A stretch of DNA of 64,000 bases from Centroscyllium fabricii (taxonomy: Eukaryota): positions 2,790,001 to 2,854,000 of the forward strand of contig JBNRSN020000089.1 in assembly GCA_051313645.2 (NCBI GenBank). The letters are read 5' to 3'. Numbering within the stretch: position 1 is the first letter of the stretch; every line of letters starts with the position of its first letter. The notes below the pieces were generated by a model, which saw only the letters and a program-made list of their open reading frames with translations, ran no database searches and was not told the origin of the DNA. This document shows positions 6,001 to 64,000 of the stretch, piece by piece. The position numbers were made by a program, and so were the translations under genes.

Positions 6001-6260
6001 ATCTGTGTACAATACATCAGACAATGTCCATCTGTGTACAATAAATCAGACAATATCTATCTGTGAACAATAAATCAGATAATGTCCATCTGTGTAAAAT
6101 ACATCAGAAAATGTCCATCTGTGAACAATCCATAAGACAATATCCATCTGTGTACAGTACATCAGACAATGTCCATCTGTGTACTATACATCAGACAATT
6201 TCCATCTGTGAACAAAACATCAGAAAATATCCATCTCTGAATAATACATCAGAGAATGTC
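1..6260. repeat. Higher-order duplication zone A (offsets 1160, 3191 and 3826 bp); boundaries approximate
   Basis: Near-identical ORF translations at 312/4138 and 1164/4990 (+3826), 2224/3384 and 2514/3674 (+1160 = 40x29), 2224/5415 and 2872/6063 (+3191). Confidence 0.8.
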
Positions 6261-39500: not shown

Positions 39501-42500
39501 GTGTACAATACATCAGACAATGTCCATCTGTGAACATTACATCAGACAATATCCATCTGTGTACAATACATCAGACAAATTCCATCAGTGTACATTACAT
39601 CAGACTATGTCCATCTCTGAACAATATATCCGACAATGTCCATCTGTGTACAATACATCAGATATTGTCCATCATTGTACAATACATCAGACATTATCCA
39701 TCTGTGTTCAATACATCAGAAAATGTCCATCTGCGTACAATGCATCAGAAAATGTCCATCTGTGAACAATACATCAGACAATATCTATCTGTGTACAAAT
39801 CGTCAGACATTGTCCATCTGTGAACAATACATCAGACAATATCCATCTGTGTACAATACATCAGACATTGTCCGTCTGTTGACAATACATCAGACAATGT
39901 CCAGCTGTGTACAATACATCAGACAATATCCATCTGTGTACAATACATCAGATCTTGTCCATCTGTGAACAATACATCAGACAATATCCATTTGTTTACA
40001 GTACATCAGACAATGTCCATCTGTGTACAATACATCAGACAATATCCATCTGTGAACAATACATCAGACATTATCCATCTGTGAACAATACATCAGACAT
40101 TATCCTTCTGTGTACAATACATCAGATCTTGTCCATCTCTGAACAATACATAAGACAATATCCCTCTGTGTAAAGTGCATCAGACAATGTCCATCTGTGT
40201 ACAATACTTCAGAAAATATCCATCTGTGAAAAATTTATAAGATATTATACATCTGTGTACAATACATCAGACATTATCCATCTGTGTACAATACATCAGA
40301 AAATGCCCATCTGTGAACACTACATAAGACATTATCCATCTGTGTACAATACATCAGACATTATCCATGTGTATACAATACATCAAACAAGTGTCCATCT
40401 GTGAACAATACATCAGACAATATCCATCAGTGTACAATACATCAGACAATTTCCATCTGTGTACAATACATCAGACAATATCCATCTGTGAGCAATATAT
40501 CAGAAAATGTCCATCTGTGCACAATACATAAGACATTATCAATCTGTGTACAATACATCAGACATTATCCATCTGTTTAGAATACATCAGACAATATCCA
40601 TCTGTGAATAATACATCCGAAAATGTCCATCTGTGTACAATACATCAGACATTATCCATCTGTGAACAATACATAACAAAATATCCATCTGTGTACAATA
40701 AATCAGCCAGTATCCATCTATGTACAATACATCAGAAAATGTCCATCTGTTTACAAAACATCAGACAATATCCATCTGTGTACAATATATGAGACATTAT
40801 CGATCTGTGAACAATACATCAGACATTATCCATCTGTGTACAATAGATCAGACATTGTCCATCTGTGAACAGTACATCAGATATTATCCATCTGTGTACA
40901 ATACATCAGACAATTTCCATTTGTGTACAATACATGAGAAAATGTCCATCTGTGTGCAATCCATCAGACATATCCATCTGTTTACAATACATCAGAGTAT
41001 GTCCATCTGTGTACAGTACATAAGACATTATCCATCTGTGAACAATAATTCAGACAATGTCCATCAATGTACAATACATCAGACAATATCCATCTGTGTA
41101 CAAAACATCAGACATTGTCCATCTGTGAACAATACATCAGACAATATCCATCTGTGTACAATACATCAGACATTGTCCGTCTGTGTACCAAACATCAGAC
41201 AATGTCCATCGGTGAACAATACACCAGACAATGTCCATCTGCGTACAATACATCAGACAATGTCCATCTGTGAACAATACATCAGACAATATCCATCTGT
41301 GTACAATACATCAGACAATGTCCATCTGTGAACAATACATCAGACAATGTCCATCTGTGAACAATACATCAGATATTGTCCATCTGTGTACAATACAGCA
41401 GAGATTGTCCATCTGTGTACAACATATCAGACATTGTCCATCAGTGTACAATACATCAGACAATATCCATTTGTGTACAATACATTAGACAATGTCCATC
41501 TGTGAACAATACATCAGACAATGTCCATCTGTGAACAATACATCAGACAATGTCCATCTGTGTACAAAATATCAGACAATGTCCATCTGTGTACAATACA
41601 TCAGACAATATCCATCTGTGAACAATACATCAGACAATGTCCATCTGTGTACAATATATCAGTAAATGTCCATTTTTGAACAATCCATAAGACAATATCC
41701 ATCTGTGTAAAGTACATCAGACAATATCCATCTGTGTACAATAGACAATATACATCTGTGAACAATACATCAGACAATGTCCATCTGTGTACAATAAATC
41801 AGACAATATCCATCTGTGTACAATACATCAGACAATATCCATCTGTGTACAGTACATCAGAGAATGTCCATTTGCGTACAATACATCAGACAATGACCAT
41901 CTGTGAACAATACATCAGACAATGTCCATCTGTGTACAATACATCAGAACATTTCCATCTGTGAACAATTCATAAGACATTATCCATCTGTGTACAATAC
42001 ATCAGACATTATCTATCTGTTTACAATATATCAGAAAATGTCCATCTGTGAACAATACATAAGACATTATCCATCTGTGTACAATACATCAGAAAATGTC
42101 CATCGGTGTACAATACATCAGACATTATACATCTGTGAGCAATACATCAGACAATATCCATCTGTTTACAATACATCAGACAATATCCATCTGTGTACAA
42201 TACATCAGAAAATGTCCATCTGTGTACAATACATCAGACAATGTCCATCTGTGTACAACACATATGACATTATCGTTCTGTGTACAATACATCAGATATT
42301 ATCCATCTGTGAACAATACTTCAGACAATATCCATCTGTATACAATACATCAGACAAATATCCATCTGTGTACAATACATCAGACAATATCTACCTGTGT
42401 ACAATACATCAGACAATGTCCATCTGTGTACAATGCATCAGACAATATTCATCTGTGAACAATACATCAGAAAATGTCCATCTGTGAACAATACATCAGA

Positions 42501-42599
42501 CTTAATCCATCTGTGAGCAATACGTCAGACAATATCCATCTGTGTACAATACATCAGACAATATCCATTTGTGTACAATATATCAGTAAATGTCCATCT

Positions 42600-43660
42600 G
42601 TGTACAATACATCAGACAATATCCATCTGTGTACAATACATCAGCCATTATCCCTCTGTGAACAAAAGAGCAGACATTATCAATCTGTGTACAATACATC
42701 AGACATTGTCCATCTGTGAACAATACATCAGACATTATCCATCTGTGAACAATAGAGAAGTAATTATCCATCTGTGTACAATTAATCAGACAGTGTCCAA
42801 CTGTGAACAATACATCAGACATTATCCATCTGTGTACAATACATCAGACAATATCCATTTGTGTACAATATATCAGACAATGTGCATCTGTGTACAATAC
42901 ATCAGACAATGTCCATCTGTGTACAATACATCAGAAAATATGCACCTGTGTACAATACATCAGACAATGTCCATCTGTGTACAATATTTCAGACAATATC
43001 CATCTGTGAACAATACATCAGACAGTGTCCATCTGTGAACAATATATCAGAAAATATACAGCTTTGTACAATACATCAGACAATGTCCATCTGTGTACAG
43101 TACATCAGACAATATCCATCTGTGAACAATACATCAGACATTATCCATCTGTGAACAATACATCAGACAATATCCATCTGTGTACAATACATCAGCCATT
43201 ATCCCTCTGTGAACAATAGAGCAGACATTATCAATCTGTGTACAATACATCAGACATTGTCCATCTGTGAACAATACATCAGACATTATCCATCTGTGTA
43301 CAATAGAGAAGTAATTATCCATCTGTGTACAATTAATCAGACAGTGTCCAACTGTGAACAATACATCAGACATTATCCATCTGTGTACAATACATCAGAC
43401 AATATCCATTTGTGTACAATATATCAGACAATGTGCATCTGTGTACAATACATCAGACAATGTCCATCTGTGTACAATACATCAGAAAATATGCACCTGT
43501 GTACAATACATCAGACAATGTCCATCTGTGTACAATATTTCAGACAATATCCATCTGTGAACAATACATCAGACAGTGTCCATCTGTGAACAATATATCA
43601 GAAAATATACAGCTTTGTACAATACATCAGACAATGTCCATCTGTGAACAATACATCAGA
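42600..43660. repeat. 551-bp (19-monomer) local tandem duplication, also present at +12854; boundaries approximate
   Basis: ORFs 42803/43354 and 42861/43412 are offset by 551 = 19x29; marker variants AATAGAGAAGTAATT and ATACAGCTTTG each occur twice. Confidence 0.85.
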
Positions 43661-45928
43661 CAATATCCATCTGTGTACAATACTTAAGACAAATGTCCAT
43701 CTTAGTACAATAAATCAGACAATATCCACCAGTGTACAATACATCAGACAATTTCCATCTGAGTACAATACATCAGACAATATACATCTGTGAACAATAT
43801 ATCAGAAAATGTCCATCTGTGCACAATACATAAGACATTATCAATCTGTATACAATACATCAGACATTATCCATCAGTGTAGAATACATCCGACAATATC
43901 CATATGTGTACAATACATCAGAAAATGTCCATCTGTGTACAATACATCAGACAATTTCCATCTGTGTACAATACATCAGACATTATCCATCTGTGAACAA
44001 TACATCAGACATTACCCATCTGTGTACAATACATCAGACAGTCCATCTGTGAACAATACATCAGACATTATCCATCTGTGTACAATATATCGGACAATAT
44101 CCATATGTGTACAATACATGAGAAAATTTCCATCTGTGTGCAATCCATCAGAAAATGTCCATCTGCTTACAATACATCAGAGAATGTCCATCTGTGTAAA
44201 GTACATCAGACATTATCCATCTGAGAACAATACTTCAGGCAATGTCCATCTGTGTACAATACATCAGATAATATCCATATATGTGCAATACATCAGACAA
44301 TGTCCATCTGTGAACAATACATCAGACAATGTCCATCTGTGGCCAATACATCAGACAATGTCGTTCTTTGTACAATATATCAGACAATATGCATCTGTGT
44401 ACAATACATCAGACAATGTCCATCTGTGTACAATACATCAGACAATGTCCATCTGTGAAAAATACATCAGACAATATCCATCTTTTTACAATACATCAGA
44501 CAATGTCCATCTGTGTACAATACATCAGACAATGTCCATCTGTGAACAATACTTCAGACAATGTCCATCTGTGTACAATACATCAGACATTGTCCATCTG
44601 TGTACAATACATCAGAGATTATCCATCTGTGCACAATACATCAGAAAATGTCCATCGGCGTACAATTCATCAGACAATATCCATCTGTGTACAATACATC
44701 AGACAATGCCCATCTGTGAACAATACATCAGACAATGTCCATCTGTGTACATTACATCAGAAAATTTCCATCTGTGAACAATACATAAGACATTATCCAT
44801 CTGTGTACAATACATAAAAAATGTCCATCTGTGTACAATACATCAGACATTATCCATCTGTGAGCAATACATCAGACAATATCCTTCTGTGTACAGTACA
44901 TCAGACAATATCCATCTGCGTACAATACATCAGAAAATGTCCATATGTGTATAATACATCAGACAATGTCCACCTGTGTACAATACATCAGACAATATCC
45001 ATCTGTGTACAATACATAAGACATTATCGTTCTGTGTACATTACATCAGACATTATCCATCTGTGAACAATACATCAGACAATATCCATCTGTGTACAAT
45101 ACATCAGACAAATGTCCATCTGTGTACAATACATCAGACAATATCCACCTGTGTACAATACATCAGACAATGTCCATCTGTGTACAATACATCAGACAAT
45201 ATCCATCTGTGAAAAATACATCAGAAAATGTCCATCTGTGTACAATACATCAGACATTATCCATCTGTGAGCAATACATCAGACAATATCCATCTGTGTA
45301 CAATATATCAGACAATATCCATCTGTGTACAATACATCAGTAAATGTCCATCTGTGTACAATACATCAGACAATATCCATCTGTGTACAATACATCAGCC
45401 ATTATCCATCTCTGAACAATAGAGCAGACATTATCAATCTGTGTGCAATACAACAGACATTGTCCATCTGTGAACAATACCTCAGACATTATCCATCTGT
45501 GAACAATAGAGAAGTAATTATCCATCTGTGTACCATTCATCAGACATTGTCCAACTGTGAACAATACATCAGACATTATCCATCTGTGTACAATACATCA
45601 GACAATATCCATTTGTGTGCAATATAACAGTAAATGTGCATCTATGTACAATACATCAGACAATGTCCATCTGTGAACAATACATCAGACAATATGCACC
45701 TGTGTACAATACATCAGAAAATTTCCATCTGTGTAAAATACATCAGTCAATGTCCACCTGTGTACAATACATCAGACAATATCCATCTGTGTACAATACA
45801 TAAGACATTATCATTCTGTGTACAATACATCAGACATTATCCATCTGTGAACAATACATCAGAAAATATCCATCTGTGTACAATACATCAGACAAATGTC
45901 CATCTGTGTACAATACATCAGACAATAT

Positions 45929-46173
45929 TGTAGCGGCACACCCGCTGGGATTACGAATCCGCCAACGGGGCTCCGCGGAGCGCAGCTCGCTCAACCACGT
46001 GATGCGGTTGCATCACCACGTCGGTGGACGTGATGACGTCACCAACGGCGGGACAGTTTAAATATGTTGATACCTCGTGGTTCTGCCTCTTCCATATTTT
46101 GAATTCCTAGAGTAAAGTTGTGTTTTCCTTTAGCTCTGTCTCTGTGCATTCTTTAAGTACTCGCAGCTCCACA
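45929..46173 (+). repeat. 5' LTR of copy 1
   Basis: TGTAGCGGCACACC...GCAGCTCCACA, repeated at 50129-50373 with 4 visible differences (46012, 46062, 46096, 46097). Confidence 0.97.
46034..46116 (+). promoter_or_regulatory. Putative LTR promoter and 3'-processing signals
   Basis: CRE/ATF palindrome TGACGTCA (46034-46041), TATA-like TTTAAATA (46057-46064), poly(A)-signal variant AGTAAA (46111-46116) followed by a GT/T-rich tract. The order fits U3-R-U5. Motif-based only. Confidence 0.5.
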
Positions 46174-46174
46174 G

Positions 46175-46187
46175 TGGTGACCCCGAC
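46175..46187 (+). other. Primer binding site complementary to the tRNA-Trp 3' end
   Basis: TGGTGACCCCGAC begins 1 nt after the LTR end and equals the first 13 nt of the known tRNA-Trp PBS TGGTGACCCCGACGTGAT (as used by avian sarcoma/leukosis viruses). Confidence 0.9.
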
Positions 46188-46263
46188 AACTGGAACGACT
46201 TCCAGTCCAGTGAAGAAAAGCTGCTGCAGTATTTGAGGATCACAGCCGAGGACTTTAAAAAAT

Positions 46264-49200
46264 ATGTCCAACGCAAGGAACCAAGCCCCACGATAACAGG
46301 GGGCTGGACGGAACACCGGGCGCGGACTTGTTTTGACCGAGTTCTGGGAGCAACGGCCAGCGGCCTGGTTTAGCTGCATAGAAGCCAGCTGCCGTTCAAA
46401 TGGCGTCAACGGGGACGACCGCTACGACTTGGTCTTCACAGCTCTGCCCCAAACGACCGTCGATAGGATGTGGTCAATGATCCAGCGCGTGCCCTCCGTA
46501 GGCAGGTACGAAACACTTAAGGCCGCGCTGATTAAGAAGTTTACCCCTTGCCAGTTCGAGCGCGACTGTCAGCTCCTCGACCTCCCCGAGCTCGGGGACA
46601 CCAACCCATCGGACCTGCTAGGTCAGATGCAGGTGCTCACTCCCAACCCTGCCACCCTATTTCACACGGTTTTCCTCCTCAAATTGCCCCGCGCAATCAG
46701 ACCTGCCCTGGCAGCCCTAGCCCATCTTAGCGACGACGAACTCGGCGAGGAAGCCGACAGGCTTATGGCGGCGCAGCGCACCAGCTCTACCACGTGCGCC
46801 CCCAACTCAGCATCGGTAGAGCACAACTATTCGCCCCCTGGGCACAATTTTATGCCCGAACCCAAGGCCCCACGCCCGCCCAGACAACCGCGCCCCTCTA
46901 GCACCGGCTGGTGCTACTATCACACGCGGTTTGAACACAAAGCGCACTGCTGCGTCCAGCCATGCACGTTTAAACCTAACTCAGCCTCCACCATGTCGGT
47001 AGGCCACACAGGAGCACTCCTCTTCGCCACCGACAGCGGCACCGGCCTCAGGTTCCTCTGCGACACAGGCGCGCAGCACAGCATCGTGCCAGCCTCCCCC
47101 GCAGAAACCAAACGAGGCACCCGCGGCCCGCCACTAGCGGCAGCCAACGGGTCCAGCATTAAAACGTACGGCACACGCGTGCTGACTATTACCCTTGCAG
47201 GCCACACGTACACCTGGGAGTTTGTAACGGCCCAGGTCACCTCTCCCCTCCTCGGGGCAGATTTCCTCTGCGCCAACGGCCTACTGGTCGATGTAACCCG
47301 GCGCCGCCTGGTGAATCTCAGCACCATGACGACCATTCCATGTTCCACAGGGCGCGCACTCCTGACCCACGCGGCAGCTCAATGCCGCTCCAAGGACTGC
47401 GATGCCTACGGCACACTCCTGGCGGAATTTCCCGCCCTTACCAACCCCACGTTCACCGCCCGCAAGGCCAAACACGGGGTAGAGCACTACATAACCACCA
47501 CAGGCCCGCCCGTCCATGCACACGCCCGTAGGCTCGACCCAGCTAAGCTGGAGATCGCCATCACCGAGTTCCGCACCATGGAACAACTCGGCATTATCCG
47601 CCGCTCCAACAGCCCCTGGCCCTCCCCGCTCCACATAGCCCCCAAGCCCGACGGCGGTTGGCGCCCCTGCGGCGACTATCGCCACCTCAACAACGCCACC
47701 ACCCCGGATAGGTACCCCGTACCCCACATCCAGGACTTTTCCGCCAGACTGGCAGGGCGCACGATCTTTTCTAAGATCGACCTGGTGCGTGGCTACCACC
47801 AGGTACCCGTGCACTCGGCGGACATTCCCAAAACGGCCGTGATCACCCCCTTCGGGCTCTTTGAATTTATGAGGATGCCCTTCGGCCTTAAAAACGCGGC
47901 CCAGGCCTTCCAGCGCCTCATGGACTCAGTCCTACGGGACTTGAAGTTCATCTTCGTCTATTTGGACGACATCCTCGTGGCCAGCTCGTCCCCTCAGGAA
48001 CACCTCCTACATCTCAGGACCCTGTTCCAGCGCCTTACCGAACACGGCCTTATATTAAGCCCCACCAAATGCAGGATTGGCCTCGAGACCATCGACTTCC
48101 TCGGCCACCGCATTTCCCAGGCAGGAGCCATACCCCTGCCCTCTAAAGCGCAAGCGGTGCAAGAATTCCCTTGCCCGCACTCTATTAAGGGACTGCAGGA
48201 ATTCTTGGGCATGGTTAATTTCTATAACCGATTTATCCCGGGAGCAGCCGCCCTCATGGCCCCCTTATACCAGGCCACCCGCGGGCAGCCCAACAAGGCT
48301 GCGGTCGAGTGGACGGCCGACGCCGCCACCGCCTTCACCGCAACCAAAACCGCCCTGGCAAACGCCACCCTTCTAGCCCACCCTAGGCCCAACGCCAGAG
48401 TAGCCCTCACCACCGACGCCTCCGACCATGCGGTCGGGGCCGTATTTGAGCAGTGGACCGGCAACTCGTGGCAACCCCTGGCCTTTTTCAGCCGGCAACT
48501 CCGGCCCCCAGAGGTTAAATACAGCGCCTTTGATAGGGAGCTACTGGCTCTCCATCTGGCGGTGCGACATTTTCGGTTCCACCTGGAGGGCCGACACTTT
48601 ACAGCCTTCACCGGCCACAAGCCACTCACGTTTGCGATGGCTAAGGTAGCTGAACCCTGGTCGGCCAGGCAGCAGCGCCAACTCACGGCCGTGTCGGAAT
48701 TCACAACCGACATTCAGCACATTTCCGGCCGCGACAATGTAGTCGCTGACTGCCTCTCACGCCCCACCATCAATGCCGCCCAAATGGCAGTTGATTACGC
48801 CCAGCTGGCCGCCGACCAGCTGGCCGACCCTGACCTAATCAATGCAGCCACTAAACTCCCTGGCCTACGCTTGGCCAATGTCGCGCACGGTCCCGCTGCC
48901 ACCGTCATCTGCTGTAACGTTTCCTTACCACAACCCAGGCCCATCGTGCCCCTCGTTTGGAGGGAATGAATCTTTACGACCCTCCACGACCTGTCCCACC
49001 CCGGCGTCCGCGCGTCCATTAGACTCATATCGGCCCAGTTCGTATGGCGCGGCCTGCGCAAAGACGTCCGCGTCTGGGCCACCTCCTGCATAGCCTGCCA
49101 GCGCTCCAAGGTGCACAAGCACATCAAGGCACCGCTGCAAAATTTTAAAGTACCGGCCAGACGCTTTGACCACGTCCATATTGACCTCGTTGGGCCTCTA

Positions 49201-50085
49201 CCAGCATCTCGCGGCCACACGCACCTACTGACCATGGTCGACCGCAACACCCGCTGGCCTGAAGCAGTTCCCCTCACTGCCACCAACACCACGGACCTAG
49301 CCAGGGCGTTCATCGCCACATGGATCGCCCGATTCGGCGTGCCCATGGACATCACCTCCGACAGAGGACCCCAGTTTACGTCGATGCTATGGGCGGCCAT
49401 CGCTCGTGACCTCGGGGTGACGCTACACAGGACCACCGCATACCACCCACAGGCGAACGGCCTATGCGAACGGTTCCACCGCTCAATGAAGGCATCATTG
49501 CGGGCCACGCTGAAGGATGCTTCTTGGACCGACCGCCTTCCATGGGTCCTCCTCGGGCTGCGCTCGGCAGTCAAAGAGGACCTCAATGCCTCAGCAGCAG
49601 AGCTCGTCTACGGCCAGGCTTTGACGGTACCGGGCGAATTTCTGGCTGAGGCCAACTCACCCTGGTCAGCAGACCAGTATTTAAAAGACTGGGCAAACCC
49701 GGCACGAGCCTTTCAGCCATTGCCAGTGGCCCGGCATGGAGAGCCGGCAGCTTGGGTGCCAGAGGACATTAAAAATGCCAAATGGGTATTTATCAGACGA
49801 GACGGGCACCGAGCCCCTTTACAGCCACCGTACAATGGCCCTTATAGAGTGCTTCGGGCGGGAGACAAGTTCTTCGAGTTACAAATGGGCAAAAGAACTG
49901 AGACAGTAACTATAGACCGGCTCAAGCCGGCACACGTGACAGCGGGCGAGACCACGTTCCCCGCGCAACCACCACAACGCGGTCGCCCTCCCGCACCTAA
50001 ACCCGCCCACACTCCAACGCAGAACCGGCAACAACGAACAACACGGTCCGGCCGCATCATCCGACCGCCCCAACGGCACACATAG
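46264..50085 (+). pseudogene. gag-pol: gag-pol polyprotein in a single frame (1273 codons) interrupted by in-frame TAA (46294-46296) and TGA (48967-48969)
   Basis: ATG 46264 is in frame with track ORFs 46333..48969 and 49111..50085. Motifs: Gag LTEFW..P.AWF; CX2HX9CX3C (46912-46965); protease FLCDTGA (D at 47062); [35 protein letters not shown] (47959-47970); RNase [21 protein letters not shown]; integrase HHCC just after the TGA (LHDLSHPG...CIACQ), D,D,E (HIDLVG, TSDRG, LCERFH) and GPY module. Confidence 0.93.
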
Positions 50086-50117
50086 ACACGGCAATTTATT
50101 TCTCCCGGATGGATTCT

Positions 50118-50125
50118 GGGGGGAG
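50118..50125 (+). other. Polypurine tract of copy 1
   Basis: GGGGGGAG ending 3 nt before the 3' LTR start at 50129. Confidence 0.8.
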
Positions 50126-50128
50126 CTG

Positions 50129-50373
50129 TGTAGCGGCACACCCGCTGGGATTACGAATCCGCCAACGGGGCTCCGCGGAGCGCAGCTCGCTCAACCACGT
50201 GATGCGGTTGCGTCACCACGTCGGTGGACGTGATGACGTCACCAACGGCGGGACAGTTTAAGTATGTTGATACCTCGTGGTTCTGCCTCTTCCATGATTT
50301 GAATTCCTAGAGTAAAGTTGTGTTTTCCTTTAGCTCTGTCTCTGTGCATTCTTTAAGTACTCGCAGCTCCACA
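50129..50373 (+). repeat. 3' LTR of copy 1
   Basis: Direct repeat of 45929-46173, preceded by the PPT and followed by the ATAT TSD. Confidence 0.97.
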
Positions 50374-53300
50374 ATATCCACCTGTGTACAATACATCAGA
50401 CAATGTCCATCTGTGTACAATACATCAGACAATATCCATCTGTGAACAATACATCAGAAAATGTCCATCTGTGTATAATACATCAGACATTATCCATCTG
50501 TGAGCAATACATCAGACAATATCCATCTGTGTACAATACATCAGACAATATCCAACTGTGTACAATACATCAGTAAATGTCCATCTGTGTACAATACATC
50601 AGACAATATCCATCTGTGTACAATACATCAGACATTATCCATCTGTGAACAATAGAGCAGACATTATCTATCTGTGTACAATTCATCAGACATTGTCCAT
50701 CTGTGAACAATACGTCAGACATTATCCATCTGTGATCAATAGAGAAGTAAATATCCATCTGTGTACAATTCATCAGACATTGTCCAACTGTGAACAATAC
50801 ATCAGACATTATCCATCTGTGTACAATACATCAGAAAATATCCATTTGCGTACAATATTACAGTAAATGTGCATCTGTGTACAATACATCAGACAATGTC
50901 CATCTGTGTACAATATATCAGACAATATGCACCTGTGTACAATACGTCAGACAATGTCCATCTGTGTACAATATTTCAGACGATATCCATCTGTGAACAA
51001 TACATCAGACAGTGTCCATCTGTGAACAATACATCAGACAATATCCATCTTTGTACAGTACATCAGACAATGTCTATCTGTGAACAATACATCAGACAAT
51101 ATCCATCTGTGTACAATACATAAGACAAATGTCCATCTGTGTACAATACATCAGACAATATCCATCAGTGTACAATACATCAGACAATTTCCATCTGTGT
51201 ACAATACATCAGACAATATACATCTGTGAACAATATATCAGAAAGTGTCCATCTGTGCACGATACACAAGACATTATCAATCTGTATACAATACATCAGA
51301 TATTATCCATCTGTGTAGAATACATCCGACAATATCCTTCTGTGTACAGTACATCAGATCATGTCCATCTGTGTACAATCCATCAGACATTGTCCAACTG
51401 TTTACAATACATCAGAAAATTTCCATCTGTGAACAATACATAAGACATTTTCCATCTGTGTACAATATATCAGACATTATCCATCTGTGTACAATACATC
51501 AGACAATATCCATCTGTGTACAATACATTAGACAACGTCCATCTGTGTACAATACATCAGACAATACCCATCTGTGTACAATACATCAGACAATATCCAT
51601 CTGTGAACATTACATCAGACAATGTCCATCTGTGTACAATATATCAGAAAATGTGCATCTGTGAACAATCCATAAGACAATATCCATCTGTGTACAATAC
51701 ATCAGACAATATTCATCTGTGAACAATACATCAGACATTACCCATCTGTGTACAATACATCAGACAGTCCATCTGTGAACAATACATCAGACATTATCCA
51801 TCTGTGTACAATACATCAGACAATATCCATATGTGTACAATACATGAGAACATTTCCATCTGTGTGCAATCCATCAGAAAATGTCCATCTGCGTACAATA
51901 CATCAGAGAATGTCCATCTGTGTAAAGTACATCAGACATTATCCATCTGTGAACAATACTTCAGGCAATGTCCATCTGTGTACAATACATCAGATAATAT
52001 CCATATGTGTGCAATACATCAGACAATGTCCATCTGTAGCCAATACATCAGACAATGTCGATCTTTGTACAATATATCAGACAATATGCATCTGTGTACA
52101 ATACACCAGACAATGTCCATCTGTGTACAATACATCAGACAATGTCCATCTGTGAACAATACATCAGACAATATCCATTTTTTTACAATACATCAGACAA
52201 TGTCCATCTGTGTACAATACATCAGACAATGTCCATCGGTGAACAATACTTCAGACAATGTCCATCTGTGTACAATATATCAGACAATGTCCATCTGTGT
52301 ACAATACATCAGAGATTATCCATCTGTGCACAATACATCAGAAAATGTCCATCGGCGTACAATTCATCAGACAATATCCATCTGTGTACAATACATCAGA
52401 CAATGCCCATCTGTGAACAATACATCAGACAATGTCCATCAGTGTACATTACATCAGACTATGTCCATCTCTGAACAATATATCCGACAATGTCCATCTG
52501 TGTACAATACATCAGATATTGTCCATCATTGTACAATACATCAGACATTATCCATCTGTGTTCAATACATCAGAAAATGTCCATCTGCGTACAATGCATC
52601 AGAAAATGTCCATCTGTGAACAATACATCAGACAATATCTATCTGTGTACAAATCGTCAGACATTGTCCATCTGTGAACAATACATCAGACAATATCCAT
52701 CTGTGTACAATACATCAGACATTGTCCGTCTGTTGACAATACATCAGACAATGTCCAGCTGTGTACAATACATCAGACAATATCCATCTGTGTACAATAC
52801 ATCAGATCTTGTCCATCTGTGAACAATACATCAGACAATATCCATTTGTTTACAGTACATCAGACAATGTCCATCTGTGTACAATACATCAGACAATATC
52901 CATCTGTGAACAATACATCAGACATTATCCATCTGTGAACAATACATCAGACATTATCCTTCTGTGTACAATACATCAGATCTTGTCCATCTCTGAACAA
53001 TACATAAGACAATATCCCTCTGTGTAAAGTGCATCAGACAATGTCCATCTGTGTACAATACTTCAGAAAATATCCATCTGTGAAAAATTTATAAGATATT
53101 ATACATCTGTGTACAATACATCAGACATTATCCATCTGTGTACAATACATCAGAAAATGCCCATCTGTGAACACTACATAAGACATTATCCATCTGTGTA
53201 CAATACATCAGACATTATCCATGTGTATACAATACATCAAACAAGTGTCCATCTGTGAACAATACATCAGACAATATCCATCAGTGTACAATACATCAGA

Positions 53301-56300
53301 CAATTTCCATCTGTGTACAATACATCAGACAATATCCATCTGTGAGCAATATATCAGAAAATGTCCATCTGTGCACAATACATAAGACATTATCAATCTG
53401 TGTACAATACATCAGACATTATCCATCTGTTTAGAATACATCAGACAATATCCATCTGTGAATAATACATCCGAAAATGTCCATCTGTGTACAATACATC
53501 AGACATTATCCATCTGTGAACAATACATAACAAAATATCCATCTGTGTACAATAAATCAGCCAGTATCCATCTATGTACAATACATCAGAAAATGTCCAT
53601 CTGTTTACAAAACATCAGACAATATCCATCTGTGTACAATATATGAGACATTATCGATCTGTGAACAATACATCAGACATTATCCATCTGTGTACAATAG
53701 ATCAGACATTGTCCATCTGTGAACAGTACATCAGATATTATCCATCTGTGTACAATACATCAGACAATTTCCATTTGTGTACAATACATGAGAAAATGTC
53801 CATCTGTGTGCAATCCATCAGACATATCCATCTGTTTACAATACATCAGAGTATGTCCATCTGTGTACAGTACATAAGACATTATCCATCTGTGAACAAT
53901 AATTCAGACAATGTCCATCAATGTACAATACATCAGACAATATCCATCTGTGTACAAAACATCAGACATTGTCCATCTGTGAACAATACATCAGACAATA
54001 TCCATCTGTGTACAATACATCAGACATTGTCCGTCTGTGTACCAAACATCAGACAATGTCCATCGGTGAACAATACACCAGACAATGTCCATCTGCGTAC
54101 AATACATCAGACAATGTCCATCTGTGAACAATACATCAGACAATATCCATCTGTGTACAATACATCAGACAATGTCCATCTGTGAACAATACATCAGACA
54201 ATGTCCATCTGTGAACAATACATCAGATATTGTCCATCTGTGTACAATACAGCAGAGATTGTCCATCTGTGTACAACATATCAGACATTGTCCATCAGTG
54301 TACAATACATCAGACAATATCCATTTGTGTACAATACATTAGACAATGTCCATCTGTGAACAATACATCAGACAATGTCCATCTGTGAACAATACATCAG
54401 ACAATGTCCATCTGTGTACAAAATATCAGACAATGTCCATCTGTGTACAATACATCAGACAATATCCATCTGTGAACAATACATCAGACAATGTCCATCT
54501 GTGTACAATATATCAGTAAATGTCCATTTTTGAACAATCCATAAGACAATATCCATCTGTGTAAAGTACATCAGACAATATCCATCTGTGTACAATAGAC
54601 AATATACATCTGTGAACAATACATCAGACAATGTCCATCTGTGTACAATAAATCAGACAATATCCATCTGTGTACAATACATCAGACAATATCCATCTGT
54701 GTACAGTACATCAGAGAATGTCCATTTGCGTACAATACATCAGACAATGACCATCTGTGAACAATACATCAGACAATGTCCATCTGTGTACAATACATCA
54801 GAACATTTCCATCTGTGAACAATTCATAAGACATTATCCATCTGTGTACAATACATCAGACATTATCTATCTGTTTACAATATATCAGAAAATGTCCATC
54901 TGTGAACAATACATAAGACATTATCCATCTGTGTACAATACATCAGAAAATGTCCATCGGTGTACAATACATCAGACATTATACATCTGTGAGCAATACA
55001 TCAGACAATATCCATCTGTTTACAATACATCAGACAATATCCATCTGTGTACAATACATCAGAAAATGTCCATCTGTGTACAATACATCAGACAATGTCC
55101 ATCTGTGTACAACACATATGACATTATCGTTCTGTGTACAATACATCAGATATTATCCATCTGTGAACAATACTTCAGACAATATCCATCTGTATACAAT
55201 ACATCAGACAAATATCCATCTGTGTACAATACATCAGACAATATCTACCTGTGTACAATACATCAGACAATGTCCATCTGTGTACAATGCATCAGACAAT
55301 ATTCATCTGTGAACAATACATCAGAAAATGTCCATCTGTGAACAATACATCAGACTTAATCCATCTGTGAGCAATACGTCAGACAATATCCATCTGTGTA
55401 CAATACATCAGACAATATCCATTTGTGTACAATATATCAGTAAATGTCCATCTGTGTACAATACATCAGACAATATCCATCTGTGTACAATACATCAGCC
55501 ATTATCCCTCTGTGAACAAAAGAGCAGACATTATCAATCTGTGTACAATACATCAGACATTGTCCATCTGTGAACAATACATCAGACATTATCCATCTGT
55601 GAACAATAGAGAAGTAATTATCCATCTGTGTACAATTAATCAGACAGTGTCCAACTGTGAACAATACATCAGACATTATCCATCTGTGTACAATACATCA
55701 GACAATATCCATTTGTGTACAATATATCAGACAATGTGCATCTGTGTACAATACATCAGACAATGTCCATCTGTGTACAATACATCAGAAAATATGCACC
55801 TGTGTACAATACATCAGACAATGTCCATCTGTGTACAATATTTCAGACAATATCCATCTGTGAACAATACATCAGACAGTGTCCATCTGTGAACAATATA
55901 TCAGAAAATATACAGCTTTGTACAATACATCAGACAATGTCCATCTGTGTACAGTACATCAGACAATATCCATCTGTGAACAATACATCAGACATTATCC
56001 ATCTGTGAACAATACATCAGACAATATCCATCTGTGTACAATACATCAGCCATTATCCCTCTGTGAACAATAGAGCAGACATTATCAATCTGTGTACAAT
56101 ACATCAGACATTGTCCATCTGTGAACAATACATCAGACATTATCCATCTGTGTACAATAGAGAAGTAATTATCCATCTGTGTACAATTAATCAGACAGTG
56201 TCCAACTGTGAACAATACATCAGACATTATCCATCTGTGTACAATACATCAGACAATATCCATTTGTGTACAATATATCAGACAATGTGCATCTGTGTAC

Positions 56301-58782
56301 AATACATCAGACAATGTCCATCTGTGTACAATACATCAGAAAATATGCACCTGTGTACAATACATCAGACAATGTCCATCTGTGTACAATATTTCAGACA
56401 ATATCCATCTGTGAACAATACATCAGACAGTGTCCATCTGTGAACAATATATCAGAAAATATACAGCTTTGTACAATACATCAGACAATGTCCATCTGTG
56501 AACAATACATCAGACAATATCCATCTGTGTACAATACTTAAGACAAATGTCCATCTTAGTACAATAAATCAGACAATATCCACCAGTGTACAATACATCA
56601 GACAATTTCCATCTGAGTACAATACATCAGACAATATACATCTGTGAACAATATATCAGAAAATGTCCATCTGTGCACAATACATAAGACATTATCAATC
56701 TGTATACAATACATCAGACATTATCCATCAGTGTAGAATACATCCGACAATATCCATATGTGTACAATACATCAGAAAATGTCCATCTGTGTACAATACA
56801 TCAGACAATTTCCATCTGTGTACAATACATCAGACATTATCCATCTGTGAACAATACATCAGACATTACCCATCTGTGTACAATACATCAGACAGTCCAT
56901 CTGTGAACAATACATCAGACATTATCCATCTGTGTACAATATATCGGACAATATCCATATGTGTACAATACATGAGAAAATTTCCATCTGTGTGCAATCC
57001 ATCAGAAAATGTCCATCTGCTTACAATACATCAGAGAATGTCCATCTGTGTAAAGTACATCAGACATTATCCATCTGAGAACAATACTTCAGGCAATGTC
57101 CATCTGTGTACAATACATCAGATAATATCCATATATGTGCAATACATCAGACAATGTCCATCTGTGAACAATACATCAGACAATGTCCATCTGTGGCCAA
57201 TACATCAGACAATGTCGTTCTTTGTACAATATATCAGACAATATGCATCTGTGTACAATACATCAGACAATGTCCATCTGTGTACAATACATCAGACAAT
57301 GTCCATCTGTGAAAAATACATCAGACAATATCCATCTTTTTACAATACATCAGACAATGTCCATCTGTGTACAATACATCAGACAATGTCCATCTGTGAA
57401 CAATACTTCAGACAATGTCCATCTGTGTACAATACATCAGACATTGTCCATCTGTGTACAATACATCAGAGATTATCCATCTGTGCACAATACATCAGAA
57501 AATGTCCATCGGCGTACAATTCATCAGACAATATCCATCTGTGTACAATACATCAGACAATGCCCATCTGTGAACAATACATCAGACAATGTCCATCTGT
57601 GTACATTACATCAGAAAATTTCCATCTGTGAACAATACATAAGACATTATCCATCTGTGTACAATACATAAAAAATGTCCATCTGTGTACAATACATCAG
57701 ACATTATCCATCTGTGAGCAATACATCAGACAATATCCTTCTGTGTACAGTACATCAGACAATATCCATCTGCGTACAATACATCAGAAAATGTCCATAT
57801 GTGTATAATACATCAGACAATGTCCACCTGTGTACAATACATCAGACAATATCCATCTGTGTACAATACATAAGACATTATCGTTCTGTGTACATTACAT
57901 CAGACATTATCCATCTGTGAACAATACATCAGACAATATCCATCTGTGTACAATACATCAGACAAATGTCCATCTGTGTACAATACATCAGACAATATCC
58001 ACCTGTGTACAATACATCAGACAATGTCCATCTGTGTACAATACATCAGACAATATCCATCTGTGAAAAATACATCAGAAAATGTCCATCTGTGTACAAT
58101 ACATCAGACATTATCCATCTGTGAGCAATACATCAGACAATATCCATCTGTGTACAATATATCAGACAATATCCATCTGTGTACAATACATCAGTAAATG
58201 TCCATCTGTGTACAATACATCAGACAATATCCATCTGTGTACAATACATCAGCCATTATCCATCTCTGAACAATAGAGCAGACATTATCAATCTGTGTGC
58301 AATACAACAGACATTGTCCATCTGTGAACAATACCTCAGACATTATCCATCTGTGAACAATAGAGAAGTAATTATCCATCTGTGTACCATTCATCAGACA
58401 TTGTCCAACTGTGAACAATACATCAGACATTATCCATCTGTGTACAATACATCAGACAATATCCATTTGTGTGCAATATAACAGTAAATGTGCATCTATG
58501 TACAATACATCAGACAATGTCCATCTGTGAACAATACATCAGACAATATGCACCTGTGTACAATACATCAGAAAATTTCCATCTGTGTAAAATACATCAG
58601 TCAATGTCCACCTGTGTACAATACATCAGACAATATCCATCTGTGTACAATACATAAGACATTATCATTCTGTGTACAATACATCAGACATTATCCATCT
58701 GTGAACAATACATCAGAAAATATCCATCTGTGTACAATACATCAGACAAATGTCCATCTGTGTACAATACATCAGACAATAT
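50374..58782. repeat. 29-bp satellite array between the two retrotransposon copies
   Basis: Same monomer and orientation; resumes in register directly after the 3' LTR (ATAT-CCACCTGTGTACAATACATCAGA). Confidence 0.99.
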
Positions 58783-59027
58783 TGTAGCGGCACACCCGCT
58801 GGGATTACGAATCCGCCAACGGGGCTCCGCGGAGCGCAGCTCGCTCAACCACGTGATGCGGTTGCATCACCACGTCGGTGGACGTGATGACGTCACCAAC
58901 GGCGGGACAGTTTAAATATGTTGATACCTCGTGGTTCTGCCTCTTCCATATTTTGAATTCCTAGAGTAAAGTTGTGTTTTCCTTTAGCTCTGTCTCTGTG
59001 CATTCTTTAAGTACTCGCAGCTCCACA
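58783..59027 (+). repeat. 5' LTR of copy 2
   Basis: Same sequence as 45929-46173, including its diagnostic bases. Confidence 0.97.
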
Positions 59028-59028
59028 G

Positions 59029-59041
59029 TGGTGACCCCGAC
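59029..59041 (+). other. tRNA-Trp primer binding site of copy 2
   Basis: TGGTGACCCCGAC just after the 5' LTR. Confidence 0.9.
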
Positions 59042-59117
59042 AACTGGAACGACTTCCAGTCCAGTGAAGAAAAGCTGCTGCAGTATTTGAGGATCACAGC
59101 CGAGGACTTTAAAAAAT

Positions 59118-62100
59118 ATGTCCAACGCAAGGAACCAAGCCCCACGATAACAGGGGGCTGGACGGAACACCGGGCGCGGACTTGTTTTGACCGAGTTCTG
59201 GGAGCAACGGCCAGCGGCCTGGTTTAGCTGCATAGAAGCCAGCTGCCGTTCAAATGGCGTCAACGGGGACGACCGCTACGACTTGGTCTTCACAGCTCTG
59301 CCCCAAACGACCGTCGATAGGATGTGGTCAATGATCCAGCGCGTGCCCTCCGTAGGCAGGTACGAAACACTTAAGGCCGCGCTGATTAAGAAGTTTACCC
59401 CTTGCCAGTTCGAGCGCGACTGTCAGCTCCTCGACCTCCCCGAGCTCGGGGACACCAACCCATCGGACCTGCTAGGTCAGATGCAGGTGCTCACTCCCAA
59501 CCCTGCCACCCTATTTCACACGGTTTTCCTCCTCAAATTGCCCCGCGCAATCAGACCTGCCCTGGCAGCCCTAGCCCATCTTAGCGACGACGAACTCGGC
59601 GAGGAAGCCGACAGGCTTATGGCGGCGCAGCGCACCAGCTCTACCACGTGCGCCCCCAACTCAGCATCGGTAGAGCACAACTATTCGCCCCCTGGGCACA
59701 ATTTTATGCCCGAACCCAAGGCCCCACGCCCGCCCAGACAACCGCGCCCCTCTAGCACCGGCTGGTGCTACTATCACACGCGGTTTGAACACAAAGCGCA
59801 CTGCTGCGTCCAGCCATGCACGTTTAAACCTAACTCAGCCTCCACCATGTCGGTAGGCCACACAGGAGCACTCCTCTTCGCCACCGACAGCGGCACCGGC
59901 CTCAGGTTCCTCTGCGACACAGGCGCGCAGCACAGCATCGTGCCAGCCTCCCCCGCAGAAACCAAACGAGGCACCCGCGGCCCGCCACTAGCGGCAGCCA
60001 ACGGGTCCAGCATTAAAACGTACGGCACACGCGTGCTGACTATTACCCTTGCAGGCCACACGTACACCTGGGAGTTTGTAACGGCCCAGGTCACCTCTCC
60101 CCTCCTCGGGGCAGATTTCCTCTGCGCCAACGGCCTACTGGTCGATGTAACCCGGCGCCGCCTGGTGAATCTCAGCACCATGACGACCATTCCATGTTCC
60201 ACAGGGCGCGCACTCCTGACCCACGCGGCAGCTCAATGCCGCTCCAAGGACCGCGATGCCTACGGCACACTCCTGGCGGAATTTCCCGCCCTTACCAACC
60301 CCACGTTCACCGCCCGCAAGGCCAAACACGGGGTAGAGCACTACATAACCACCACAGGCCCGCCCGTCCATGCACACGCCCGTAGGCTCGACCCAGCTAA
60401 GCTGGAGATCGCCATCACCGAGTTCCGCACCATGGAACAACTCGGCATTATCCGCCGCTCCAACAGCCCCTGGCCCTCCCCGCTCCACATAGCCCCCAAG
60501 CCCGACGGCGGTTGGCGCCCCTGCGGCGACTATCGCCACCTCAACAACGCCACCACCCCGGATAGGTACCCCGTACCCCACATCCAGGACTTTTCCGCCA
60601 GACTGGCAGGGCGCACGATCTTTTCTAAGATCGACCTGGTGCGTGGCTACCACCAGGTACCCGTGCACTCGGCGGACATTCCCAAAACGGCCGTGATCAC
60701 CCCCTTCGGGCTCTTTGAATTTATGAGGATGCCCTTCGGCCTTAAAAACGCGGCCCAGGCCTTCCAGCGCCTCATGGACTCAGTCCTACGGGACTTGAAG
60801 TTCATCTTCGTCTATTTGGACGACATCCTCGTGGCCAGCTCGTCCCCTCAGGAACACCTCCTACATCTCAGGACCCTGTTCCAGCGCCTTACCGAACACG
60901 GCCTTATATTAAGCCCCACCAAATGCAGGATTGGCCTCGAGACCATCGACTTCCTCGGCCACCGCATTTCCCAGGCAGGAGCCATACCCCTGCCCTCTAA
61001 AGCGCAAGCGGTGCAAGAATTCCCTTGCCCGCACTCTATTAAGGGACTGCAGGAATTCTTGGGCATGGTTAATTTCTATAACCGATTTATCCCGGGAGCA
61101 GCCGCCCTCATGGCCCCCTTATACCAGGCCACCCGCGGGCAGCCCAACAAGGCTGCGGTCGAGTGGACGGCCGACGCCGCCACCGCCTTCACCGCAACCA
61201 AAACCGCCCTGGCAAACGCCACCCTTCTAGCCCACCCTAGGCCCAACGCCAGAGTAGCCCTCACCACCGACGCCTCCGACCATGCGGTCGGGGCCGTATT
61301 TGAGCAGTGGACCGGCAACTCGTGGCAACCCCTGGCCTTTTTCAGCCGGCAACTCCGGCCCCCAGAGGTTAAATACAGCGCCTTTGATAGGGAGCTACTG
61401 GCTCTCCATCTGGCGGTGCGACATTTTCGGTTCCACCTGGAGGGCCGACACTTTACAGCCTTCACCGGCCACAAGCCACTCACGTTTGCGATGGCTAAGG
61501 TAGCTGAACCCTGGTCGGCCAGGCAGCAGCGCCAACTCACGGCCGTGTCGGAATTCACAACCGACATTCAGCACATTTCCGGCCGCGACAATGTAGTCGC
61601 TGACTGCCTCTCACGCCCCACCATCAATGCCGCCCAAATGGCAGTTGATTACGCCCAGCTGGCCGCCGACCAGCTGGCCGACCCTGACCTAATCAATGCA
61701 GCCACTAAACTCCCTGGCCTACGCTTGGCCAATGTCGCGCACGGTCCCGCTGCCACCGTCATCTGCTGTAACGTTTCCTTACCACAACCCAGGCCCATCG
61801 TGCCCCTCGTTTGGAGGGAATGAATCTTTACGACCCTCCACGACCTGTCCCACCCCGGCGTCCGCGCGTCCATTAGACTCATATCGGCCCAGTTCGTATG
61901 GCGCGGCCTGCGCAAAGACGTCCGCGTCTGGGCCACCTCCTGCATAGCCTGCCAGCGCTCCAAGGTGCACAAGCACATCAAGGCACCGCTGCAAAATTTT
62001 AAAGTACCGGCCAGACGCTTTGACCACGTCCATATTGACCTCGTTGGGCCTCTACCAGCATCTCGCGGCCACACGCACCTACTGACCATGGTCGACCGCA

Positions 62101-62939
62101 ACACCCGCTGGCCTGAAGCAGTTCCCCTCACTGCCACCAACACCACGGACCTAGCCAGGGCGTTCATCGCCACATGGATCGCCCGATTCGGCGTGCCCAT
62201 GGACATCACCTCCGACAGAGGACCCCAGTTTACGTCGATGCTATGGGCGGCCATCGCTCGTGACCTCGGGGTGACGCTACACAGGACCACCGCATACCAC
62301 CCACAGGCGAACGGCCTATGCGAACGGTTCCACCGCTCAATGAAGGCATCATTGCGGGCCACGCTGAAGGATGCTTCTTGGACCGACCGCCTTCCATGGG
62401 TCCTCCTCGGGCTGCGCTCGGCAGTCAAAGAGGACCTCAATGCCTCAGCAGCAGAGCTCGTCTACGGCCAGGCTTTGACGGTACCGGGCGAATTTCTGGC
62501 TGAGGCCAACTCACCCTGGTCAGCAGACCAGTATTTAAAAGACTGGGCAAACCCGGCACGAGCCTTTCAGCCATTGCCAGTGGCCCGGCATGGAGAGCCG
62601 GCAGCTTGGGTGCCAGAGGACATTAAAAATGCCAAATGGGTATTTATCAGACGAGACGGGCACCGAGCCCCTTTACAGCCACCGTACAATGGCCCTTATA
62701 GAGTGCTTCGGGCGGGAGACAAGTTCTTCGAGTTACAAATGGGCAAAAGAACTGAGACAGTAACTATAGACCGGCTCAAGCCGGCACACGTGACAGCGGG
62801 CGAGACCACGTTCCCCGCGCAACCACCACAACGCGGTCGCCCTCCCGCACCTAAACCCGCCCACACTCCAACGCAGAACCGGCAACAACGAACAACACGG
62901 TCCGGCCGCATCATCCGACCGCCCCAACGGCACACATAG
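59118..62939 (+). pseudogene. gag-pol: gag-pol polyprotein of copy 2 with in-frame TAA (59148-59150) and TGA (61821-61823)
   Basis: Track ORFs 59187..61823 and 61965..62939 are in one frame and match copy 1 except KDRDA vs KDCDA. Confidence 0.93.
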
Positions 62940-62971
62940 ACACGGCAATTTATTTCTCCCGGATGGATTCT

Positions 62972-62979
62972 GGGGGGAG
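62972..62979 (+). other. Polypurine tract of copy 2
   Basis: GGGGGGAG just upstream of the 3' LTR at 62983. Confidence 0.8.
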
Positions 62980-62982
62980 CTG

Positions 62983-63227
62983 TGTAGCGGCACACCCGCT
63001 GGGATTACGAATCCGCCAACGGGGCTCCGCGGAGCGCAGCTCGCTCAACCACGTGATGCGGTTGCGTCACCACGTCGGTGGACGTGATGACGTCACCAAC
63101 GGCGGGACAGTTTAAGTATGTTGATACCTCGTGGTTCTGCCTCTTCCATGATTTGAATTCCTAGAGTAAAGTTGTGTTTTCCTTTAGCTCTGTCTCTGTG
63201 CATTCTTTAAGTACTCGCAGCTCCACA
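62983..63227 (+). repeat. 3' LTR of copy 2
   Basis: Same sequence as 50129-50373, including its diagnostic bases. Confidence 0.97.
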
Positions 63228-64000
63228 ATATCCACCTGTGTACAATACATCAGACAATGTCCATCTGTGTACAATACATCAGACAATATCCATCTGTGAA
63301 CAATACATCAGAAAATGTCCATCTGTGTATAATACATCAGACATTATCCATCTGTGAGCAATACATCAGACAATATCCATCTGTGTACAATACATCAGAC
63401 AATATCCAACTGTGTACAATACATCAGTAAATGTCCATCTGTGTACAATACATCAGACAATATCCATCTGTGTACAATACATCAGACATTATCCATCTGT
63501 GAACAATAGAGCAGACATTATCTATCTGTGTACAATTCATCAGACATTGTCCATCTGTGAACAATACGTCAGACATTATCCATCTGTGATCAATAGAGAA
63601 GTAAATATCCATCTGTGTACAATTCATCAGACATTGTCCAACTGTGAACAATACATCAGACATTATCCATCTGTGTACAATACATCAGAAAATATCCATT
63701 TGCGTACAATATTACAGTAAATGTGCATCTGTGTACAATACATCAGACAATGTCCATCTGTGTACAATATATCAGACAATATGCACCTGTGTACAATACG
63801 TCAGACAATGTCCATCTGTGTACAATATTTCAGACGATATCCATCTGTGAACAATACATCAGACAGTGTCCATCTGTGAACAATACATCAGACAATATCC
63901 ATCTTTGTACAGTACATCAGACAATGTCTATCTGTGAACAATACATCAGACAATATCCATCTGTGTACAATACATAAGACAAATGTCCATCTGTGTACAA
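63228..64000. repeat. 29-bp satellite array, continuing beyond the right window edge
   Basis: Same monomer; matches 50374-51146 at offset 12854. Confidence 0.99.

What the first reader, a model, noticed from the sequence alone, without database searches (positions are those of the whole stretch)
39581..64000. A disabled retrotransposon copied as cargo of a 12.85-kb satellite+TE macro-repeat
Seen: both elements share kilobases of satellite flank, the ATAT TSD, both nonsense codons and the same four 5'/3' LTR mismatches. Known: retrotransposition resets the two LTRs to identity and uses a new site. Inference: copy 2 arose through satellite turnover (unequal exchange or break-induced replication), so a new higher-order unit containing a whole Gypsy element is forming. 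Unit 2 runs off the window, so more copies may follow.
Basis: partly seen in the sequence, partly recalled or inferred. Interest (0 to 1): 0.7.

Follow-up and report, generated by a model that had tools for sequence, protein, structure and literature searches.

The report
Satellite duplication carrying a dead retrotransposon
A broken jumping gene sits twice, 12.85 kb apart, in a long satellite DNA array, most likely because one recent duplication of the array copied it along; there are only two copies, a third of the other insertions in this array have been multiplied with their flanks too, and the pattern is already described in other animals and plants.

Summary
Observation confirmed; extrapolation not. 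Window 39581-52434 is repeated head-to-tail once: 3 substitutions and no indel in 12,860 bp. Both copies hold the same 4,445-bp Ty3/Gypsy element of CsRn1 type, with the same ATAT target duplication, two in-frame stops and four LTR mismatches. An unoccupied paralogous site with one ATAT lies 2.4 kb past the window end. There is no third unit: the diagonal ends at 52440/65294 and each insertion junction occurs exactly twice in the assembly. The join is in satellite register with 6 bp of perfect match. It is routine here: 63 tandem-like diagonals (0.3-12.9 kb; a few redundant or inside inserts) in 949 kb, and 7 of 20 insert groups multiplied with their flanks. The family has about 1,900 copies; 20 of 20 others examined lie outside the satellite. 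Passive copying of Gypsy elements inside satellites is published (bioRxiv 10.64898/2026.09.17.752431). Reads spanning the junction could not be tested; artefact about 7%. The scan's notes showed no earlier case (8 of 40 shown). Ordinary, well-preserved example.

The parts
39581..52434 (+). Duplication unit 1 (12,854 bp = 8,405 bp satellite, about 290 monomers, + 4,445-bp element + 4-bp TSD)
52435..64000 (+). Duplication unit 2 (runs on to window-extended 65288, G000:C1477:2855288); last unit
52435..52440 (+). Duplication junction: 6 bp of perfect match (TCCATC, also at 39581-39586 and 65289-65294) between two different monomers in register; the 66-mer across it is unique in the assembly
45929..50373 (+). 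Ty3/Gypsy LTR retrotransposon, CsRn1 type, copy 1 (4,445 bp)
58783..63227 (+). Same element, copy 2; differs from copy 1 at one base (60252 vs 47398)
45929..46173 (+). 5' LTR, 245 bp, TG...CA (copy 2: 58783-59027)
50129..50373 (+). 3' LTR, 245 bp, four mismatches to the 5' LTR, two derived on each LTR (copy 2: 62983-63227)
45925..45928 (+). Target-site duplication ATAT, left (right 50374-50377; copy 2: 58779-58782 and 63228-63231)
   Evidence: single ATAT at the empty paralogous site, window-extended 66422
46175..46187 (+). Primer binding site, 13 nt complementary to the 3' end of tRNA-Trp
46264..50085 (+). Single gag-pol frame (DUF7041 Gag, protease, RT, RNase H, integrase), broken by stops at 46294 and 48967 (copy 2: 59118-62939, stops at 59148 and 61821); no env-sized frame
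46912..46965 (+). Gag CX2HX9CX3C (CHCC) motif
   Evidence: motif defined in PMC2582038
50118..50125 (+). Polypurine tract before the 3' LTR
   Evidence: sequence read directly
42615..43646 (+). Older 551-bp satellite duplication (2 mismatches in 481 bp) nested in the unit and copied with it (55469-56500)
1..45928 (+). 29-bp satellite array, ~85% monomer identity, one orientation; also 50374-58782 and 63228-64000; whole array about 0.9 Mb

Best explanation
A decayed Ty3/Gypsy retrotransposon stands twice, 12,854 bp apart, in a 29-bp satellite array, most likely because one recent head-to-tail duplication of the array copied it as passive cargo together with 8.4 kb of satellite. Order of events: (1) an older satellite duplication left an unoccupied twin of the future target (shown: empty site with one ATAT); (2) the element inserted once, making the ATAT duplication (shown); (3) it decayed in place, about 0.75-0.95% per lineage, gaining two stops and four LTR mismatches (shared state shown; in-place origin inferred); (4) a homology-guided event between two monomers 12.85 kb apart, in register, about 85% alike, with 6 bp of perfect match at the switch, doubled the segment (structure shown; pathway inferred, most likely a template switch during replication or break repair, with unequal sister exchange giving the same product); (5) three substitutions arose afterwards, two on copy 1 and one on copy 2 (inferred from family and satellite states), making the duplication about 65-80 times younger than the insertion (Poisson range about 20-390). 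The element plays no active part; the same process has multiplied a third of the inserts in this array.
For: Three substitutions and no indel in 12,860 bp; the diagonal stops at the unit end. Shared TSD, LTR mismatches and stops; 33 substitutions shared by both copies and absent from 20 of 20 other copies. The other 20 copies behave as real transpositions: 4-bp TSD in 19 of 20, never ATAT, LTRs identical in 14 of 20, no satellite flank in 20 of 20. Empty paralogous site, 3 mismatches in 300 bp. Both breakpoints lie in satellite, in register (flank identity 0.88 and 0.83 on the same diagonal). 63 tandem-like diagonals of 96.8-100% identity in 949 kb without N, 38 of the first 40 in register: a continuum of ages that an assembler would not make. 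7 of 20 insert groups multiplied with flanks (x6, x4, x4, x4, x2, x2, x2). In-register kilobase tandem duplications arise spontaneously in Arabidopsis satellite arrays (10.1101/2025.06.02.657473, passages).
Against: No read evidence: public contigs laid on the element showed no contig with the window's letter at most listed private sites, so those runs say nothing on this locus. Three differences in 12.9 kb are few enough to be haplotype differences or consensus errors. At 12,854 bp it is the largest of the 63 diagonals (median 2.1 kb among the first 40), so it lies in the tail. Perfect-match lengths at 17 clean junctions (median 22 bp) are somewhat longer than between random monomers (median 14; one-sided p=0.018; one of the 17 lies inside a LINE, and junctions blurred by later mutations were left out), so this junction's 6 bp is short for the array and the pathway stays open.
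Confidence: 0.88

Rival explanations
1. Assembly artefact: one copy written twice, or two haplotypes stacked head to tail.
For: Copies are 99.98% identical; the contig is a 3.35-Mb piece that is satellite over all 1.26 Mb read; no reads could be checked.
Against: No N in 1.26 Mb, so no scaffold join. The join has only 6 bp of perfect match in 85%-alike DNA, too little for an overlap assembler to invent without a read that holds it (own knowledge). The differences are substitutions, not homopolymer indels; one is a CpG transition; the derived state falls on both copies. Dozens of like duplications with 0.2-3% divergence lie in the same array.
Confidence: 0.07
2. Early stage of an expanding transposon-bearing higher-order repeat, with three or more units in other haplotypes or individuals.
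For: A 12.85-kb near-perfect dimer is a good substrate for further unequal exchange (inference). Upstream, a roughly 10.2-kb unit with three retroposon fragments already stands in about four copies.
Against: Exactly two copies in this assembly; most duplications in the array stand at two copies; a dimer can as easily collapse. Compatible with the best explanation, but untested.
Confidence: 0.1
3. Two independent insertions of a satellite-targeting retrotransposon.
For: The family is young and large (3,840 exact LTR-start matches), so many insertions are available.
Against: 8.4 kb of near-identical flank, shared private substitutions and LTR mismatches; 0 of 20 other copies have satellite flanks; no other copy with that LTR start in 949 kb.
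Confidence: 0.005

Closest known systems
Gypsy-LTR copies with identical TSDs inside a satellite array in the wasp Anoplius nigerrimus; 11 LINE copies in Porphyrio hochstetteri; 6 retroviral copies in Cervus elaphus (bioRxiv 10.64898/2026.09.17.752431; section 9 read whole)
   Same: One integration, then copying by host recombination within the satellite; same strand, same TSD.
   Different: Two copies here against 5-11 there; whether this array is centromeric is untested; another animal group.
In-register tandem duplications of CEN178 in Arabidopsis mutation-accumulation lines (bioRxiv 10.1101/2025.06.02.657473; passages)
   Same: Kilobase head-to-tail duplications that keep monomer phase and make a chimeric monomer at the breakpoint; mean insertion 1,870 bp there, median period 2.1 kb here.
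   Different: Those insertions were at most 31 units and the passages seen report no duplicated transposon (a large deletion in a mutant took a whole ATHILA); here 12.85 kb with an element inside, 29-bp monomer.
22.7-kb adjacent segmental duplication in maize centromere 10 (PMC4806543; passages)
   Same: A large tandem duplication carrying Ty3/Gypsy sequence, with 5 nt of match at the junction.
   Different: Its breakpoints lie inside retrotransposons; here both lie in satellite monomers in register.
CsRn1 clade of Ty3/Gypsy (PMC2582038, passages; fish members in PMC11117352, passages)
   Same: CHCC Gag motif, tRNA-Trp primer site, 4-bp TSD, PR-RT-RH-IN order, about 4.4 kb with 200-300-bp LTRs as in pufferfish members.
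   Different: No tree was built; family not named; this copy is broken.

Membership tests
Ty3/Gypsy LTR retrotransposon | Direct LTRs with TG...CA ends, primer site, polypurine tract, TSD | tested here: met
Ty3/Gypsy LTR retrotransposon | Pol order protease-RT-RNase H-integrase | tested here: met
   Pfam PF13975 (E 7e-5, below its curated cut-off), PF00078, PF17919, PF17921, PF00665 in that order
CsRn1 clade | Gag CX2HX9CX3C (CHCC) motif | tested here: met
   46912-46965; definition in PMC2582038
CsRn1 clade | tRNA-Trp primer binding site | tested here: met
   13-nt match. The probe hit 142 places; of 11 checked, ARAGORN called 4 tRNA-Trp(CCA), 1 Cys, 1 SeC, 5 nothing
CsRn1 clade | 4-bp target-site duplication | tested here: met
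   ATAT here; 4-bp TSD in 19 of 20 other copies
CsRn1 clade | RT-RH-IN phylogeny groups with CsRn1 | not tested
   No reference sequences were fetched
Passive duplication of a transposon by satellite turnover | Copies share TSD, flanks and post-insertion mutations | tested here: met
Passive duplication of a transposon by satellite turnover | Breakpoints in satellite, monomer phase kept | tested here: met
Passive duplication of a transposon by satellite turnover | Junction present in raw reads | not testable with these tools
   Only short-read contigs of other samples were offered
Higher-order repeat or macrosatellite | Unit repeated many times in tandem | tested here: not met
   Two copies only
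Satellite-targeting (centrophilic) retrotransposon | Family enriched in the satellite | tested here: not met
   0 of 20 other copies with satellite flank (these are the closest hits out of about 1,900, not a random draw); one insertion in 949 kb
Centromeric satellite | CENP-A occupancy | not testable with these tools
   No chromatin data

The most novel reading that the evidence does not exclude
This 0.9-Mb array is a dated record of transposon hitch-hiking in a vertebrate satellite: a third of its insertions were multiplied by host duplications, at stages from a fresh dimer (this one) to four- to six-copy units, and the 12.85-kb dimer is the first step of a higher-order repeat built around a whole retrotransposon that varies in copy number between individuals.
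Probability: 0.15. Interest if true: 0.45.

Novelty: new member of a known kind. Interest (0 to 1): 0.2.

Why it matters
Modestly. It warns that near-identical transposon copies inside satellites need not mean transposition, which inflates activity estimates. The element works as a clock and a marker: insertion, decay and duplication can be ordered, and the base-exact junction shows that a 12.85-kb duplication needed no long perfect homology. The array as a whole (63 diagonals, 7 of 20 inserts multiplied) would suit a study of satellite turnover rates in this group. The principle itself is published.

Tried and rejected
Further +12,854 periods: none. Copies of the same insertion on other contigs: none with exact junctions. 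First try at grouping inserts had an indexing bug and was redone. First three tRNA probe hits gave no tRNA call; eight more from clusters were checked. The stop at 46234 was rejected as a lesion (20 of 20 other copies have it). Inheritance of the second stop from a defective donor: it is in 2 of 20 other copies, but the nine sites shared with a minority of copies are scattered over different copies, which fits recurrent change better than one lineage; not excluded. A rough count of duplicated 50-bp bins (27% of bin families multi-copy) is only a loose expectation for the 7 of 20. The diagonal count includes redundant rows (multiples of one period, duplications copied by later ones), one LTR pair and three repeats inside LINEs; it misses duplications broken by indels or over 60 kb. 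Literature: six searches; only aimed at shark satellites (12 of 391 listed, none on this array), so absence from print is not shown. bioRxiv supplements were closed and may hold more cases.

Full report
Setting. The window is G000:C1477:2790001-2854000, on a 3.35-Mb contig of a 7.2-Gb assembly. An earlier scan note calls the genome a shark or ray; I did not test that. The window is a 29-bp satellite (about 85% monomer identity, one orientation) interrupted by two GC-rich 4.4-kb blocks. I read 1.26 Mb of the contig without an N. The 29-bp array runs from about 650 kb before the window start to window-extended 249,050, where it gives way abruptly to a 37-bp GC-rich satellite.

At offset 12,854, window 39581-51146 matches 52435-64000 with one difference. 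With the next stretch of the contig the match continues to 52440/65294, three substitutions and no indel in 12,860 bp, and then stops. Unit 2 differs from the following 12,854 bp at 9,132 places and unit 1 from the preceding at 8,975 (ungapped). Both element-satellite junctions occur exactly twice in the assembly and the 66-mer across the duplication junction once. So there are two units, not an array of units.

The element. 4,445 bp, 245-bp TG...CA LTRs, ATAT on both sides. One gag-pol frame from 46264 to 50085 with DUF7041, protease (weak, below the Pfam cut-off), RT, RNase H and integrase, broken by stops at 46294 and 48967. It has the CX2HX9CX3C Gag motif, a 13-nt primer site matching the genome's tRNA-Trp (4 of 11 probed places called tRNA-Trp) and a 4-bp TSD: the marks of the CsRn1 clade in PMC2582038 (passages), which also occurs in fish at this size (PMC11117352, passages). 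No tree was built. The family is large and young: 3,840 exact LTR-start matches, about 1,900 elements. I fetched 20 of the 31 other full-length hits: all 4,445 bp, 4-bp TSD in 19, identical LTRs in 14, none flanked by the satellite; they differ from each other by 7-20 bases but from the window copy by 47-49. The window copy is therefore an older, decayed member with 34 private substitutions, 33 shared by both copies. The first stop is in 0 of 20 others, the second in 2 of 20.

One insertion, then duplication. Retrotransposition gives identical LTRs and a new target (established; seen in the 20 controls). Here both copies share four LTR mismatches, two derived on each LTR, the TSD and 8.4 kb of satellite, including a nested older 551-bp duplication. 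An older satellite duplication preserved the unoccupied target at window-extended 66422, with one ATAT and 3 mismatches in 300 bp, which proves the TSD. Per-lineage divergence since insertion is 0.74-0.94% by three measures; between the two units it is 0.012%, a ratio of 64-81 (Poisson range about 22-390). This assumes equal rates and that the private substitutions arose in place.

The junction. Both breakpoints lie in satellite, in monomer register (flank identity 0.88 and 0.83 on the same diagonal), with 6 bp of perfect match. Random in-register monomer pairs share a median of 13-14 bp around a point, and 19% share 6 or fewer. Seventeen clean junctions in the array have a median of 22 bp (p=0.018 against that null; one lies inside a LINE; junctions with negative overlap from later mutations were dropped). 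So the process is homology-guided but needs no long perfect tract. I favour a template switch during replication or repair; unequal sister exchange gives the same product and is not excluded.

It is routine in this array. An ungapped search (period 0.3-60 kb, at least 96% identity) found 40 tandem-like diagonals in 549 kb and 23 in a further 400 kb, from 96.8 to 100% identity; some rows are redundant, one is an LTR pair and three lie inside LINEs. 38 of the first 40 are in register. 55% of the 549 kb has a second copy of at least 99% identity within 60 kb. Of 20 groups of non-satellite inserts, 7 are multiplied with their flanks: this element x2, a 1.7-kb solo LTR x2, a 607-bp LINE end x2, a 2.96-kb LINE-tailed piece x4, and three short retroposon pieces x6, x4 and x4 in a roughly 10.2-kb unit; two of the last groups are 96.6% alike and may be one insertion (then 6 of 19). 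What is special here is only the size, the largest found, and that a whole LTR element was caught.

Artefact? Reads could not be checked; public contigs did not show this insertion's private letters at most listed sites, which is no evidence either way. Against an artefact: no gap, a junction too short for an overlap join (own knowledge of assemblers), substitution-only differences with the derived state on both copies (47398 and 51925 on copy 1, 51430 on copy 2; the last two judged against the satellite consensus), and a continuum of older duplications. I put it at 7%.

What is known. bioRxiv 10.64898/2026.09.17.752431, section 9 (read whole) reports five Gypsy copies with identical TSDs in a wasp satellite, 11 LINEs in a bird and six retroviral copies in deer, read as one integration copied by host recombination. 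bioRxiv 10.1101/2025.06.02.657473 (passages) shows phase-keeping kilobase tandem duplications arising in Arabidopsis satellites. PMC4806543 (passages) describes a 22.7-kb adjacent duplication with retrotransposons and a 5-nt junction in maize. The finding works like these and passes the tests for passive duplication; it fails the test for a higher-order repeat (two copies) and for a satellite-targeting family.

Verdict. Real with about 0.9 probability, correctly read as passive cargo, but a single ordinary duplication of a known kind. Interest 0.2.

Noticed in passing
L018-L020 and L079-L080 (G000:C1477:2696490-2745700; 44-94 kb before the window): A roughly 10.2-kb unit holding three short retroposon pieces (335, 419, 335 bp) stands in about four imperfect tandem copies, 14 insert copies in all; one pair of units differs at 3 of 11,377 bases. 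This is nearer to a transposon-bearing higher-order repeat than the finding itself.
   Followed up: partly
L004:3170-7600 (window-extended 97180-101591): A 1.7-kb solo LTR (TG...CA, AATA on both sides) duplicated with its flanks at period 2,703 with no mismatch; a 3.8-kb element made of two such LTRs around about 270 bp lies 187 kb before the window.
   Followed up: partly
G000:C1477:2244680-2405400: A 2.96-kb insert with a LINE-type tail occurs four times with the same right flank, up to 158 kb apart, so copying within the array also reaches long distances.
   Followed up: no
G000:C1477 near 3039050 (L047) and near 2140000 (L136-L137): The 29-bp array ends abruptly downstream in a 37-bp, 54% GC satellite with longer periods of 1,990 and 3,031 bp; the upstream end also borders 52% GC DNA.
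   Followed up: no
L001, L003-L004, L009, L070-L072 (inserts 2-190 kb from the window): The LINE inserts whose frames were checked lie on the + strand, the satellite's strand as written, and most inserts end in (TTCTATG)n-type tails; one 5.6-kb LINE has an esterase (GDSL) ORF1. A strand bias or satellite preference of these LINEs was not tested.
   Followed up: no
G000 genome-wide: The Gypsy family has about 1,900 elements, mostly paired LTRs 4.2 kb apart in the listed part, many with identical LTRs: a very recent burst.
   Followed up: partly
L107, L110: ARAGORN calls tRNA-Cys(GCA) and tRNA-SeC(TCA) at two places with a tRNA-Trp-like 3' end in tRNA-Trp clusters; probably Trp genes with changed anticodons.
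   Followed up: no
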